DNA of 64,000 nucleotides from Eledone cirrhosa (Eukaryota). The notes below the pieces were generated by a model, which was not told the origin of the DNA, made no database searches, and worked only from the letters and a program-made list of their open reading frames with translations. Location of the stretch: positions 14,322,001 to 14,386,000 of the forward strand of contig OZ024760.1 of NCBI GenBank assembly GCA_964016885.1, in the 5' to 3' direction. This document shows positions 9,868-63,784 of this stretch, one piece after another. The translations under genes and the position numbers were made by a program. Numbering within the stretch: the first letter of the stretch is position 1; the number at the start of each line of letters is the position of its first letter.

Positions 9868-10181
9868 TAACCGTTTACGTTTCGCATATATATATATACA
9901 CACACACATAAAATACATATACATGTTCCAGCCAGTTGGCCTGGAACAGGTAAAAGAATATGTATATATATATATATATATACATATATATCTGTGAGTG
10001 TGTGTGTGTGTGTTTATATATATACACACACATGTATATATATATATATATACACACATATTACACATATATATATTATATATATATATATATATATACA
10101 CACACATTACACATACATACATATATATATATATACACACACATTACACATACATACATATATGTATATAAACATATATAT

Positions 10182-10421
10182 GAGAAAGTATGACCCCGAA
10201 GGCAGAGCTCAAGCCGTTTCGACGGCTATTTCAGTCCAGAAATAGCCGCCGAAACGGCTTGAGCTCTGCCGTCGGGGTCATACTTTCTCCTATTACCCAC
10301 AGCATTGAGTACTCTTGTGCGTTATGGTCCATCTGGTTCCTTACCACAACTCCTTCGTTATTATTATATATATAGTCCAGGACGGCTTGAGCTCTGCCGT
10401 CGGGGTCATACTTTTTCCTAT
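10182..10421 (+). mobile_element. Fold-back HHR-derived element family B plus adjacent partial copy
   Basis: Inverted arms around a ggctattt/aaatagcc hairpin; GAAA-CGGC..GCCG-TC-GGGGTC; tail with TTGAGTACTC at 10305; partial arm 10375-10421. Confidence 0.85.
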
Positions 10422-12848: not shown

Positions 12849-13122
12849 GTGAATGTATATAAGTGCATCTTTACGTTTACAAGTGTATCTATCTATCTTT
12901 ATGTATACAAATGTATCTATATGTATAAGTGTATTTTTATATGTACAAGTGTATCTGTATGTATGTATATATGTGTGTGTGTGTATCCATATGAATATAT
13001 GTGTAGCTATATGTACATATGTTTCTAAGTGTATCTCTGTATCTCTCGCTTTGTATATATGTATGTTGTTATATAGCAAGCACCATGTGCGTACATGTTG
13101 CTATATGTATGTGTGTGTGTGT

Positions 13123-13248
13123 ATCCCGGGTTCAATGGGAGGTAACCACAGTAAGTAAGGTACTCAATACATAGTAGAGTATACATATTTAATATAGAAA
13201 TGGCTTCTACAGGGCTAGAACCGTTTCATTCGAAGAAAATCATCAGGA
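13123..13248 (-). mobile_element. HHR-tail element family C
   Basis: Minus strand tc-CTGATGA-ttttcttcgaat-GAAA-CGG-ttctagcc-CTG-TA-GAAGCC, then tail with TTGAGTAC; homologous to 17163, 23483 and 61596. Confidence 0.8.
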
Positions 13249-16012: not shown

Positions 16013-16547
16013 ATATAGTTGCGTATGTGTGTGTATATATATACACAGTCATGTAGTTGTGTATGTGTCTGTATATATATATATGTCATGTAGTTGCCTA
16101 TGTGTCTGTATATATATATATATATGTCGTAGTTGCGTATGTGTCTATATATATATATATATATATATGTCTATGTGTGAGAATGAGTGAGTGTGATAGA
16201 GAGAGATTAGCTTATTTATGTAAATATATATCCGTTAATATACACACAGATTAGATTTTGAGGTGTGATAATATATATACATATATATACCCCTGTGTAC
16301 GTATGTATATATACCTTTTAAAACATACACACCCATACATTGTATGAATAATATATATATATACACACACACACAACAGTGTGTAATTTATATTTAGCTA
16401 CTCAGACACACACACACACCTATATATACATATATGTATATATGTATATATATATATATACACATATACTCATATATAAATAGCTAACTAACTGAATAGG
16501 TGGATGAGGATGTGTATGTATGTGTATATATATATATATATATATAC

Positions 16548-16700
16548 AGGAAAATATTCAGGACCCCGACGGCTGAGCTCCGGCCGTTTCGACAGCTAGA
16601 TCCGAACGGGGTCCTGACTCTTTTTCTATTACCCACTCTACTACATTAAATATTGAGTACTCTGCTGCGTCATGCTCCACCTGGTATCTTACCACACCCT

Positions 16701-16705
<5 letters not shown>
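16548..16705 (+). mobile_element. Fold-back element family B, internally deleted
   Basis: ggaccccgacggctgagctc..ccgtttcgacagctagatccgaac joined to ggggtcc; tail with TTGAGTACTC at 16653; TA-flanked. Confidence 0.85.
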
Positions 16706-16732
<27 letters not shown>

Positions 16733-16736
<4 letters not shown>

Positions 16737-16939
16737 GTAGAACACTGGAAGGTAATATCCGTAGTGGTAGAGCACTCAGTCCATGGGACGAGTTAGGTAG
16801 AAGTGGTTACACAACAGTTAGTTCACCATACCGAGAACAATTGTTTCACCTTAGCGGATCCTCAGCTCGTAATCGAGGATCCGCTAAGGTGAAACAATTG
16901 TTCTCGGTATGGTGAACTAACTGTTGTGTAACCACTTCT
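16733..16939 (-). mobile_element. Fold-back element family F containing a complete HHR (16832-16869)
   Basis: Perfect 65-bp inverted arms 16799-16863 and 16875-16939; minus strand CGAG-CUGAGGA-UCC-GCUAA-GGU-GAAA-C-AAUU-G-UU-CUCG; tail 16733-16798 with TGAGTGCTC. Confidence 0.85.
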
Positions 16940-16976
16940 GTATATGTGTATATATGTGCGTGTGCGTGTGTGTGTG

Positions 16977-17162: not shown

Positions 17163-17289
17163 TATCCAGGGTTCAATCGGGGGTAACCACAGTAAGTAAG
17201 GTACTCAATACATAGCAGAGTATAAATATTCAATATAGAAATGGCTTCTACAGGACTAGAACTGCTTCATTCGGGAGAAATCATCAGGA
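17163..17289 (-). mobile_element. HHR-tail element family C (GAAA mutated to GAAG)
   Basis: Closely similar to 13123-13248. Confidence 0.8.
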
Positions 17290-23421: not shown

Positions 23422-23482
<61 letters not shown>

Positions 23483-23483
<1 letters not shown>

Positions 23484-23707
23484 CAAGTTAAATATAGAAA
23501 TAGCTTCGACAGAACTAGAACTGTTTCAGTCAAAAGAAATCATCAGGGTTTTCCTGATGGTTTCTTTTGAATGAAACAGTTCTAGTCCTGTAGAAGCCAT
23601 TTCTAATATTAAATTTGATGTTTACACTCTAGTAATGTATTGAGTACCTTACTAACTGTGGTTACCCTCGATTGAACTAGGGACTCACACATACACACAC
23701 AGATATA

Positions 23708-25961: not shown

Positions 25962-26005
<44 letters not shown>

Positions 26006-26010
<5 letters not shown>

Positions 26011-26198
26011 AACAAGTAAGACCCCGACGGCTGAGCTCAAGCCGTTTCGACGGCTAATTAGTACAGAATTAGCCGTCGAAACGGCTTGAGCTCAGCCGTC
26101 GGGGTCTTACTTGTTCCTATTACCCACTCTACTACCCTAAGTATTGAGTACTTTGGTGCGTTATGGTCCACCTGGTTCCTTAACACATTTCCTTCGTT
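26006..26198 (+). mobile_element. Fold-back element family B, best-preserved copy
   Basis: Perfect 54-bp arms 26006-26059 and 26067-26120; GAAA 26078, stem III ACGGCT/AGCCGT, GTC 26098; tail 26121-26198; pure (TA)n on both sides. Confidence 0.9.
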
Positions 26199-26530
26199 AT
26201 ATATATATATATATATATATATAAATGTACACATATATATACAAAACAAATTAAAAAAACAAGTATATATCGCCTACATTCTTATACATGTATTATATGT
26301 GTGTATATATTCTTTACATACCTATACTACACATATATACACTATTATAAGCTAGAAATATATATACACACACATACATAAACTGTAAATGAACCCACAC
26401 AAACAAACCTGCTCGAAAGAAGTATACCCGCCAATCTTGTTAATATAGTCGATAATGTTATAAACATACTAAACACACACACACACACAATATATATATA
26501 TATACATATATATATATGTATATACATATG

Positions 26531-26598: not shown

Positions 26599-26813
26599 TG
26601 AAGGCGTATGGCTGAGTTTGTTAGAGAATTGGGTTCACAATCGTGAGGTTATGAGTTCGATTCCCGGATCGGGTGATGCGTTATGTCCTTGAGCAAGACA
26701 CTTTATTTCACATTGCTCCTTCTACCTGGAGTTGCGACCGATAGATAGTATCAGCAATTGGAAAGACCAATGGAAACATTGTTTCCTTGGTCCGATTTGA
26801 CGAAAGTCGATCG
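26599..26813 (+). mobile_element. tRNA-derived SINE family 2
   Basis: A box tggctgagtttg, B box gagttcgattcc; matches 4389-4601. Confidence 0.85.
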
Positions 26814-29631: not shown

Positions 29632-30631
29632 TTGAAAATATTTCTTAAGAGAGTCTCAAAGCAGGAAGTCCCAGTCTCTCTAGTTGAGCTCTGGAAATAT
29701 TTAAGAATGAGAAGCAAAGTCCCTTGGTAGTCTTTTATTTATTATAGAGGCCATATCCTCTCCTTTAGCATGTGTAATGAAAGGGGGCCCTCTTTAAATA
29801 GGGAGTTAGTCTAAGGATGTCTGGGGGTGGAGAGTGTAATGAGGCTGTGTGAGAAGGGTGTGTAGTGTGAGAGTCTTTAAGAATGAAAGGCAGTGTCTCT
29901 TGGTAGTGATTTGTATGTGTGTGTGTATGAGTGTGTGTATGTGTGTGAGTGTGAGTATGTATTTATGTGTGTATATGTGTGTGTGTGTGTGTATGTGTGT
30001 GTGTATGTATTGTGGTGGTTGTGGTGATGGTGGTGGTGTGGTGATGGTGGTGTAATGTGATGTGGTGTAGTGTGGTGTAGTGTAGTGTAGTGTGGTGTTG
30101 TGTCATGTAGTGTAGTGTAGTGTAGTGTGGTGTGGTGTAGTGTAGTGTAGTGTGGTGTAGTGTGTTGTAGTGTGGTGTGGTGTAGTGTGGTGTGGTGTTG
30201 TGTCATGTAGTGTAGTGTGTTGTAGTGTGGTGTGGTCTGGTGTAGAAATTGCCTTCTTTTATTCTACCGTGTAATAAAGCTATGCTTCTGTTTTTTTACA
30301 TTGAGACTAAACTAAAACGTTACCAGATTTTCTTATCATTATTGTTGTTGCTGTTATTGTTGTTATTATTTGTCATTTCCGTCATTTCTCCACTGTGGAA
30401 CTGAGATTTTATTGTGTATATATATATTTATATATATATATATATATATGTTTATATATATATTTATATATATATATATATATATATATGTTTATATATA
30501 TATATATAAACATAAACACACATATATATATATATAAATATATATAATATAACCAAATCAACTTTTTTTAAAAGGAAGTTGCATTATTACAAGGTATGTC
30601 ACTAATTATTTATAAAACAGCTTATGTATTG

Positions 30632-30740
30632 TATTTTGTCTGAGGAAGGCATAACATATTTTTAATATGATATCCCAGAAATATATATAACGAAATAAAT
30701 ATGGTTTTATAAATATAGTTTCCATTTGTTTAATATCGTA
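30632..30740 (+). ncRNA. Family D Type I hammerhead (30632-30697) with 3' flank
   Basis: UAUUUUGU-CUGAGGA-stem II-GAAA-U-AUAU-A-UA-ACGAAAUA; flank homologous to 63640-63690. Confidence 0.75.
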
Positions 30741-30805
30741 AATATATATATATATGCTTATATATATATATACATTATATATATATATATAATATATATA
30801 TATAC

Positions 30806-43730: not shown

Positions 43731-43738
<8 letters not shown>

Positions 43739-43933
43739 AGATTCAGGACCCCGATGGTTGACCTCTGGCCGTTTTGACAGCTAGATCCGAACAGTTCGGA
43801 TCTAGCTGTCGAAACAGCCAGAGCTCAGCCATCGGGGTCCTGAATCTTTTCATATTACCCATTCTCCTACCCCAAGTATTGAGTACTCTGGTGGGTTATG
43901 GTCCACCTGGTATCTTACCACACCTTCTTTGTT
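43731..43933 (+). mobile_element. Fold-back element family B, CpG-decayed copy
   Basis: Arms 43731-43792 and 43794-43855; tail TTGAGTACTC at 43879; TA-flanked. Confidence 0.85.
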
Positions 43934-61409: not shown

Positions 61410-61963
61410 AACTGCCGTTAGCGAGCTTATACTATTAAGTCTACGTTAACGTATGTCAATATCTTAACACCAAATATTATATTTTATCTGATGAAAGCAC
61501 ACTAACATTTTGTGTCCTTCAAATACGTATAATAAAATAAATATGGTATTATAAAGATATTTTCCATTTATTAATATTGTTAATATATATATATATTTAA
61601 TATAGAAATAGCTTCTACAGGACTAGAACTGTTCCATTCGGGAGAAATCATCAGGAAAGATGAGTAAATATTTATACTCTGCTATGTATTGAGTACTTTA
61701 CTTACTGTGGTTACCCCCGAATGAACCCGGGATAAACATATATATAAAGTGGACGTGTAGGCGCCACGGGAAAAAAGCACCCAGTCCACACTGTAAATGA
61801 GGTTGGTGTTAGGAAGGGCATCCAGCCGTAGAAATCGTGCCAGAATCAGTTCCAGTATGAACAAGACAAGGTCAGCCGACCAGACACTGCCCTCAACAGG
61901 ACAACCCATCTAACCTATGCTAGAGTGGAAGAATGGACGTAAAACGGTGATGATGATGATATA

Positions 61964-62005: not shown

Positions 62006-62054
<49 letters not shown>

Positions 62055-62220
62055 ATAATATTAATAAATGGAAAATATCTTTATAAAACCATATATTTAT
62101 TTTATTATACATATTTCAAGGGTACCAGTATTTTGGTACGCTATCGTCAGATAAAATACAATATTTGGTTTACAGATAATGACATATCAACATATGAACT
62201 TAATGTTATGAGTTCAATGT
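61410..62220. mobile_element. Cluster: family D HHR (+, 61480-61539), family C element (61596-61738), SINE family 3 (61750-61960), family D HHR (-, 62098-62158)
   Basis: CTGATGA at 61488 (GAAA mutated to CAAA); minus-strand CTGACGA..GAAA-TATGTA-TA at 62098-62158; family C arm and tail with TTGAGTACT at 61689. Confidence 0.8.
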
Positions 62221-63406: not shown

Positions 63407-63784
63407 CAATGATATTAAATAAATGGAAACTATATTTACAAAACCATATTTATTTTATTATATATATTTCAAGGGTACCAAGACACATTGATACGCTTTC
63501 ATCAGATAAAATACAAAGTTTGTTTTATAAATAGAGACATACCCATAAAAATCATACCTTATCGGTTGGAAATTCACTGTATTTTATTTTATCTGATGAA
63601 AGCGTATCAATGTGTCTTGGTACCCTTGAAATATATATAATAAAATAAATATGGTTTTGTAAATATAGTTTCCATTTATTTAATATCATTGAATATTTAC
63701 TCCAGTAAACTGTTGAGTGCTCTAAATCAGTTATAAACATTTATATTTGTTGGAATTCCAACAAATTAAATACCCCTTCTACTT
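63407..63784 (+). mobile_element. Family D fold-back with two intact HHRs (63451-63513 minus, 63583-63649 plus) and 3' tail
   Basis: Arms ~63407-63514 and ~63578-63691; UUUAUUUUAU-CUGAUGA-AAGCGUAUCAA-ugugUc-UUGGUACCCUU-GAAA-U-AUAU-A-UA-AUAAAAUAAA; tail TTGAGTGCTC at 63713; TA-flanked. Confidence 0.9.

What the first reader, a model, noticed from the sequence alone, without database searches (positions are those of the whole stretch)
26006..26198. Family B: snap-back on stem II deletes the catalytic CUGANGA
Seen: all family B copies keep GAAA, a paired stem III (ACGGC/GCCGU with GAGCUC in the loop), a GUC or AUC triplet and GGGGUC. Where stem I 5' and CUGANGA should be, there is an inverted copy of the 3' half. 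The axis is a hairpin directly 5' of GAAA and differs between copies (10182, 26006, 43731). The inverted arm ends at a tat microhomology with the TA tract. Inference: the parent reads GACCCC-CUGANGA-stem II, and these are catalytically dead products made repeatedly.
Basis: partly seen in the sequence, partly recalled or inferred. Interest (0 to 1): 0.75.

Follow-up and report, generated by a model that had tools for sequence, protein, structure and literature searches.

The report
Penelope mini-hairpins ending at RNA start
This 193-base hairpin is one of many thousands of miniature back-to-back copies of a Penelope-type jumping gene, likely made when both ends of cut DNA copy the same short stretch of the element's RNA up to its probably capped start, which lies inside the element's self-cutting RNA motif.

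Summary
The hairpin is real: two perfect 54-bp arms around a 7-nt spacer, a one-sided tail, TA tracts at both ends. It is the smallest form of insertion of an abundant Penelope-like retroelement with Hydra-clade motifs (intact 719-aa ORF found). One exact hairpin pattern has 11,823 loci genome-wide. The parent hammerhead exists but reads TTGANAA (U3-A8; 4,978 matches) or CTGAGAA (1,564), not CTGANGA (37). The hairpin is not parental stem II: both arms stop at one point in loop II. Snap-back of one strand fits poorly: either arm can be the longer (17 against 20 of 90 short copies; 18 against 12 resolved long ones), and one insertion has non-overlapping arms. An untemplated G beside the stop point on both arms (191 loci, against 3 with A) suggests a capped RNA start. 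Best reading: both DNA ends prime at the two known internal start sites, run to the RNA 5' end and are joined, so the core was never on the template. No RNA data were available. Inverted ends, the tail and U3-A8 are in print; the scan noted the same pattern earlier on other DNA of this genome.

The parts
25965..26008 (.). (TA)n target tract, left; last 3 nt shared with the arm end
   Evidence: sequence
26006..26059 (-). tailless arm: inverted copy of element positions +8 to +61 (+1 = first A of the spacer)
   Evidence: exact reverse complement of 26067-26120; +61 is one of two fixed ends in long insertions
26060..26066 (+). spacer = parental loop II positions +1 to +7; 26060 is the inferred RNA 5' end, in an initiator-like context in the parent
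   Evidence: extra-G counts; 'initiator-like' is a recalled consensus
26070..26105 (+). 3' half of a type I hammerhead: stem II 3' strand 26070-26077, GAAA 26078-26081, stem III 26081-26099 with palindromic loop, C17 at 26100, stem I 3' strand 26101-26105
   Evidence: sequence; parent alignment and pair counts
26060..26198 (+). tailed arm, element positions +1 to +139
   Evidence: 99% match to the pLTR of parent copy L005
26121..26198 (+). one-sided tail (+62 to +139), which in tandem parents runs on into the 5' UTR and ORF
26198..26223 (.). (TA)n target tract, right
   Evidence: sequence
10178..10359 (+). second hairpin copy, another subfamily; +1 at 10233
10375..10421 (+). extra tailless piece beside the second copy, starting at the +1 motif with an internal skip
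16547..16705 (+). asymmetric copy: tailless arm reaches about +2, tailed arm starts only at about +41
43731..43933 (+). hairpin copy of an older subfamily with a different loop II; +1 at 43793
   Evidence: matching parents L207, L216
22950..22980 (-). short tailless-arm fragment between TA tracts

Best explanation
The hairpin is a miniature back-to-back insertion of a Penelope-like retroelement, likely made when both ends of a cut (TA)n tract prime reverse transcription at two fixed sites (+61 and +139) near the 5' end of the element RNA, run to its probably capped start inside hammerhead loop II, and are then joined. Shown: the parent element and its ORF, its U3-A8 hammerhead layout, the two fixed ends, one of each per insertion, the sharp stop at +1, the symmetry of arm lengths and the excess of an untemplated G. 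Inferred: that +1 is a capped transcription start, that both DNA ends prime, and that end joining fuses the two cDNAs. On this reading the catalytic core is missing because it lies upstream of the RNA start, not because a fold-back removed it.
For: Parent: 5 of 30 top genomic matches run on upstream into a full hammerhead layout; an intact 719-aa ORF with RT and C-terminal VIY/YIG nuclease motifs lies in L273; the model of the L063 protein (pLDDT 91.6) has telomerase RTs as its three best fold matches. Two ends: 90 of 92 hairpins have the tail on one arm only, as do long insertions; two internal RT starts flanking the tail, and extension of both DNA strands, are reported for an anole element (PMC11167929). 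Symmetry: tailless arm longer 17, tailed 20, equal within 2 nt 53, of 90; long insertions 18 against 12, 15 unresolved, of 45 (my reading); in L294 the arms do not overlap at all. Stop point: in 50 position-ordered hairpins no arm passes -4 although the pattern left room; contigs of a public run show a loose end at the base equal to +1 and a roughly 8-fold drop in summed depth across it. Extra G: both arms with G next to +1 at 191 loci, with A at 3; by eye C 15 against T 2 and C 25 against T 2 of 100 arm ends each, 4 and 6 of the C being ambiguous single-letter inserts. An extra G marks the cap in L1 insertions (PMC11702581, passages). The Y-Y-A-G-T-Y context of +1 persists in subfamilies whose loop II is otherwise unrelated.
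Against: No RNA 5' end was measured. Many of the 191 inserts (CAG, CAGAATT and like) can also be read as short templated pieces, so that ratio overstates the effect; in 34 held loci the tally was only C 10 against T 3, with A 34 and G 21. Many arms go 1-5 nt past +1 and a few to about -12, so the end is not single. The arms share their subfamily haplotype in 65 of 82 copies (random pairing 10), as snap-back also predicts; two-ended priming must then use one RNA or RNAs of one source. G on both arms is also compatible with fold-back on an untemplated tail. Later inversion of the spacer by recombination between arms could symmetrise lengths in overlapping copies. The TATA-like box 29-31 nt upstream is absent in the older subfamily.
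Confidence: 0.7

Rival explanations
1. Self-priming: one cDNA folds back near its end, copies itself and joins the TA tract at TAT (the first reader's idea; self-priming was also proposed in print for palindromic Penelope junctions).
For: Arms are of one haplotype in 65 of 82 copies; short microhomologies of 1-4 nt occur at 25 of 50 junctions; proposed in PMC3846280. It may account for some copies.
Against: The tailless arm is longer in 17 of 90 short and 18 of 30 resolved long insertions; L294 has non-overlapping arms; L063, L064 and L065 carry a third, internal piece between the arms; the tailless end is fixed at +61 although other TA sites are near; L123 has two different common haplotypes on its arms.
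Confidence: 0.12
2. Two-ended priming is right, but +1 is not a transcription start: it is a stall, an RNA processing site or a splice acceptor (the site reads YAG after a pyrimidine run).
For: The -1 base is always C or T, giving YAG; Penelope elements have introns near the pLTR (PMC4209133); RTs add untemplated letters at any template end, and A is the commonest next letter.
Against: Arms keep the AG and carry no constant upstream exon; G greatly exceeds A as untemplated neighbour; the 4-bp local hairpin of one subfamily is not conserved in others.
Confidence: 0.13
3. The hairpin is a self-propagating SINE- or MITE-like unit copied whole from a few master hairpins.
For: High copy number (11,823 exact matches; about 85,000 by sampling); some junctions recur.
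Against: 42 distinct junctions in 50 copies; every subfamily has long parents with the same ends; the target is TA tract at both ends with no fixed terminal repeat.
Confidence: 0.05

Closest known systems
Hydra clade of C-terminal EN+ Penelope-like elements (Craig et al. 2021, PMC8557442; section 11 and passages read)
   Same: RW(R) motif, DKT, CxCX5C linker, CxxC and CxH around the nuclease E and N, (TA)n target, hammerhead in the pLTR, inverted 5'-truncated copy and one-sided tail.
   Different: Unit is 3.63 kb, above the usual 3 kb; tail is 78 nt, not 30-40; core is U3-A8 or C3-A8; short hairpins outnumber long insertions about 5 to 1 in a random sample (11 against 2). No tree against named Hydra sequences was built.
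Poseidon element of the anole, in vitro (Frangieh et al. 2024, PMC11167929; parts 1-2 of 4 read)
   Same: Two internal RT starts flanking the tail; both target strands cut and extended; AT-rich target; ribozyme cleavage not needed.
   Different: That work reports starts without homology to the target and does not model the inverted join or the RNA 5' end; here both ends merge into TA by 2-3 shared letters.
Inverted pLTRs with palindromic junctions in rotifer Penelope (Arkhipova et al. 2013, PMC3846280; parts 1-4 of 5 read)
   Same: Head-to-head inverted pLTR, optional tail, TATA and initiator-like motifs in the pLTR.
   Different: Explained there by self-priming on an antisense template, from few copies; here thousands of copies favour two primed ends on a sense, probably capped template.
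[quoted passage not shown]
   Same: Type I layout, long stem II, palindromic loop III, U3-A8 variant, pairs of motifs on opposite strands 100-700 bp apart.
   Different: Half-ribozyme hairpins cut in loop II, a 37-nt loop II and an amplified C3-A8 subfamily are not described in the parts read.
L1 twin priming and cap G (PMC11702581, passages read; twin-priming model otherwise recalled)
   Same: Both DNA ends prime, end joining at the inversion, extra G at full-length 5' ends.
   Different: L1 inverts and deletes non-overlapping parts from a poly(A) end; here both arms usually copy the same 60 nt from two fixed internal sites.

Membership tests
EN+ Penelope-like element | Single ORF with telomerase-like RT | tested here: met
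   719-aa ORF in L273 with YRDDG; top three fold matches are TERTs, E about 2e-8, TM about 0.36. Pfam and PDB sequence searches were blank.
EN+ Penelope-like element | C-terminal GIY-YIG nuclease | tested here: met
   VIY...YIG motifs with downstream E and N at the C terminus; by motif only, no separate fold match listed.
EN+ Penelope-like element | pLTRs from partial tandems, inverted 5'-truncated copy, one-sided tail | tested here: met
   L062, L063, L273, L286 tandems; inverted arms in 30 resolved loci of 45.
Hydra clade | RWK, DKT, CxCX5C, CxxC and CxH motifs | tested here: met
   RLRWR (R for K), DKT, CNCPDRSIC, CNLC, CKH in L273; DKT in 110 and CxCX5C in 113 of 120 homologues, ADKG in 0.
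Hydra clade | (TA)n insertion | tested here: met
   TATATA after the tailless end in 74 of 82, TA-type after the tail in 66 of 82.
Hydra clade | Generally under 3 kb | tested here: not met
   Unit 3,631 nt; the paper gives this as a tendency.
Hydra clade | Placement in an RT tree with named Hydra families | not tested
   No named reference sequences were fetched; supplements of PMC8557442 were not opened.
Type I hammerhead (parent) | Three stems around the core, G10.1-C11.1 and A15.1-U16.1 pairs | tested here: met
   80% of cells paired, 5 pairs with two-sided change, slid controls 19-54% (13 sequences picked by motif, so biased). Rfam gave no hammerhead hit and the lowest-energy fold is not the active one.
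Type I hammerhead (parent) | Paired positions 3 and 8 | tested here: inconclusive
   U3-A8 in 4,978 matches, unpaired C3-A8 in 1,564, C3-G8 in 37 or fewer.
Type I hammerhead (parent) | Self-cleavage after GUC | not testable with these tools
   Needs an in vitro assay.
Type I hammerhead (hairpin copy) | Complete core | tested here: not met
   No 5' core near any of four window copies.
Non-LTR retrozyme | Tandem monomers each with a whole hammerhead | tested here: not met
   Dispersed single hairpins with half a motif; definition from the abstract of 10.64898/2026.07.22.740005.

The most novel reading that the evidence does not exclude
The element starts its RNA inside its own hammerhead, so the 5' end carries only the 3' half of the ribozyme and the missing half sits in the far pLTR. 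The ribozyme could then assemble only when the two ends of a unit-length RNA meet, cutting and closing it into the circle that makes partial tandems, while uncut capped RNA is copied from both DNA ends into tens of thousands of tiny hairpins: a split ribozyme that switches between productive and abortive copying.
Probability: 0.12. Interest if true: 0.8.

Novelty: new variant of a known kind. Interest (0 to 1): 0.5.

Why it matters
How Penelope-like elements, the closest relatives of telomerase, make their inverted ends is an open question (PMC8557442 names it; PMC3846280 proposed self-priming). Here thousands of independent junctions act as a natural run-off experiment. They favour two primed DNA ends and point to a single base as the RNA start, inside the ribozyme, so one cap-mapping run and one in vitro assay can decide it. 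They also explain about half a percent of this genome as Penelope by-products rather than MITEs or microRNA-like hairpins, and the 1,564-copy subfamily with an unpaired core suggests that self-cleavage may not be needed for spread.

Tried and rejected
Rfam: no hammerhead among the 150 listed of 403 window hits, which are TA-repeat noise, nor on the parent. Pfam and PDB sequence searches of the ORF were blank. RNA: no RNA holder listed; the runs laid are contigs of unknown kind, one study, possibly the source of the assembly, so expression and 5' ends were not seen. My first core patterns had a gap too short for the 51-nt parental spacer; replaced. I first read L003 as having non-overlapping arms; more flank showed that they overlap (L267), claim dropped. 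I first took the 801-codon frame of L063 as the ORF; that copy is frameshifted near its start and the ORF begins at an ATG seen in L273. I first read U3-A8 as proof of selection for catalysis; the C3-A8 subfamily weakens that. Arm haplotypes did not show two templates: mismatch 4.0% at diagnostic against 3.3% at other sites. One search used a mis-registered structure and is disregarded. A strict parse giving 33 of 90 tailless arms beyond the tailed arm counts 1-nt differences and point changes, so it is not relied on. A conserved TATA box was rejected as general. Paper searches listed no paper on cap-bounded Penelope mini-hairpins or on twin priming in Penelope; the library lacks most subscription papers and Repbase.

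Full report
Setting. The window lies in a 3.0-Gb assembly of 1,796 contigs, rich in TA repeats. It resembles an octopus-type genome; that label is recalled and was not tested. Element positions below count from +1, the first A of the spacer (window 26060).

Observation. The arms at 26006-26059 and 26067-26120 are exact reverse complements around a 7-nt spacer (z -23.9). A 78-nt tail follows on one side only, and TA tracts flank both ends. Related copies lie at 10178, about 16547 and 43731, with fragments at 10375 and 22950. The copy near 16547 lacks GAAA and stem III on its tailed arm. One exact hairpin pattern has 11,823 genomic loci and a reversed control 0. In 39 random 10-kb stretches I count 11 hairpins, 2 long insertions and 3 single arms, or about 85,000 hairpins genome-wide (95% range 42,000-151,000).

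The parent. Five of the 30 best matches continue upstream instead of folding back. They show stem I, a TTGANAA core, stem II with a 37-nt loop, GAAA, stem III with a palindromic loop, GUC and stem I 3'. Of 57 pLTR hits (chosen by likeness to one copy, some held twice) 55 have TTGANAA. U3-A8 is a known core variant of Penelope hammerheads (PMC4209133). Stems hold across 13 hand-picked relatives (80% paired, 5 two-sided changes), but Rfam and the lowest-energy fold do not recover the motif and cleavage is untested. The pLTR belongs to a 3,631-nt unit. L273 holds an intact 719-aa ORF with the motifs that define the Hydra clade (lead from earlier finding e1-9560118, checked here). The L063 protein has 691 homologues at E 0.001 or better among 7,994 scored, and its model matches telomerase RTs best.

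Two fixed ends. pLTR copies end either at +61 or at +139, each merging into TA. 90 of 92 hairpins have one of each, and so do long inverted insertions. This is the known inverted pLTR with one-sided tail (PMC8557442; PMC3846280), and the tail is known to lie between two internal RT starts, with both target strands extended in vitro (PMC11167929). The hairpin is thus the shortest member of a continuum of two-armed insertions.

Snap-back or two primed ends. A fold-back of the tailed cDNA requires the tailed arm to be the longer. In 49 one-tailed, position-ordered hairpins the tailless arm is longer by 3 nt or more in 11, the tailed in 11, equal in 27; over all 90 held, 17, 20 and 53. Of 45 long loci, by my reading, the tailless arm is longer in 18, the tailed in 12, and 15 are unresolved. 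L294 has arms that do not overlap (tailed +98 to +139, tailless -61 to +61), which neither fold-back nor later flipping can give. L063, L064 and L065 have a third piece between the arms. Against this: arms share a haplotype in 65 of 82 copies (random 10), with one clean two-haplotype case (L123), so both cDNAs mostly come from one RNA or one source, and some copies may still be true fold-backs. Self-priming is the published hypothesis for such junctions (PMC3846280).

Why the core is missing. Arms stop sharply: in 50 hairpins the longer arm reaches +2 to -1 in 28 and none passes -4, with 42 distinct junctions. Public contigs show a loose end at the base equal to +1 and a roughly 8-fold fall of summed depth across it (not a copy number, and perhaps the source sample). 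The parent has only C or T at -1, yet both arms carry G there at 191 loci against 3 with A; by eye, untemplated C outnumbers T at cDNA ends 15 to 2 and 25 to 2 in two lists of 100, and 10 to 3 in 34 held loci. An extra G is the mark of a copied cap in L1 (PMC11702581). The context of +1 fits the initiator consensus TCAKTY (recalled) and survives in subfamilies with unrelated loop II; Penelope promoters lie in the pLTR (PMC2377424 passages; PMC3846280). Caveats: many G-bearing inserts can be read as templated scraps, many arms pass +1 by a few letters (a second initiator-like site at -4, or untemplated A), and the site also reads like a splice acceptor. No RNA run was listed.

Mechanism, most likely (0.7). 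The nuclease cuts a TA tract; both 3' ends are extended from +61 and +139 on an RNA that starts at +1; near the RNA 5' end both cDNAs run out after about 60 and 140 nt and are joined bluntly or by 1-4 nt of homology. The same two sites in the 3' pLTR give long insertions with scattered 5' ends. These need an uncut 3' ribozyme, since cleavage at +41 would part the start sites from the ORF (inference), in line with the C3-A8 subfamily and with cleavage being dispensable in vitro. Partial tandems need read-through or circular templates, which this reading does not explain.

Novelty. Class, inverted ends, tail and U3-A8 are in print. Nine paper searches listed no account of cap-bounded mini-hairpins or of twin priming in Penelope; supplements and Repbase were not seen and may hold this family. 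The scan reached a like reading earlier on other DNA of this genome (e1-9525717, e1-8802548); I had stated mine before looking. Verdict: new variant of a known kind, interest 0.5.

Noticed in passing
G000, 1,564 matches, e.g. L015:1570-1696: A whole subfamily amplified with core CTGAGAA, C3 facing A8 with position 7 nearly always G. Either catalysis is dispensable, or the core is in transit between C3-G8 and U3-A8; A-to-I editing at position 8 would restore the pair (speculation). The roughly 11 CTGAGGA copies are as few as chance point change would give.
   Followed up: partly
window 23480-23690, 61592-61740, 13117-13248, 17171-17289: A second family has the same two-arm, one-tail layout in TA tracts but keeps CTGATGA, with its axis just 5' of the core; its tail shares a CTCTA...GTATTGAGTAC motif with family B. 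Also in 9 of 44 other 10-kb stretches.
   Followed up: partly
window 63407-63710, 62050-62170, 30620-30750: A third hammerhead-like family with CTGANGA, one copy as an inverted pair with a spacer of about 75 nt.
   Followed up: no
L220-L226 (G000:C2:356029903-356031748): At least seven tandem 299-nt repeats, each with a whole U3-A8 hammerhead of this family whose loop II is shortened; retrozyme-like array.
   Followed up: no
L081, L083, L093, L098, L251: Rare sister families keep a canonical CTGATGA or CTGAAGA core with the same stem III loop.
   Followed up: partly
L063:71-1639 (minus strand): A second, diverged Penelope-like ORF of 523 codons lies next to the family B parent.
   Followed up: no
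L136 and L275: Exceptions to one end of each kind: one hairpin with tails on both arms and a nested locus with tailless outer ends.
   Followed up: no
window 16735-16940: A long near-perfect palindrome unrelated to family B, next to the copy at 16547.
   Followed up: no
window 26600-26700: Start of a tRNA-like SINE head (recalled resemblance, not tested).
   Followed up: no
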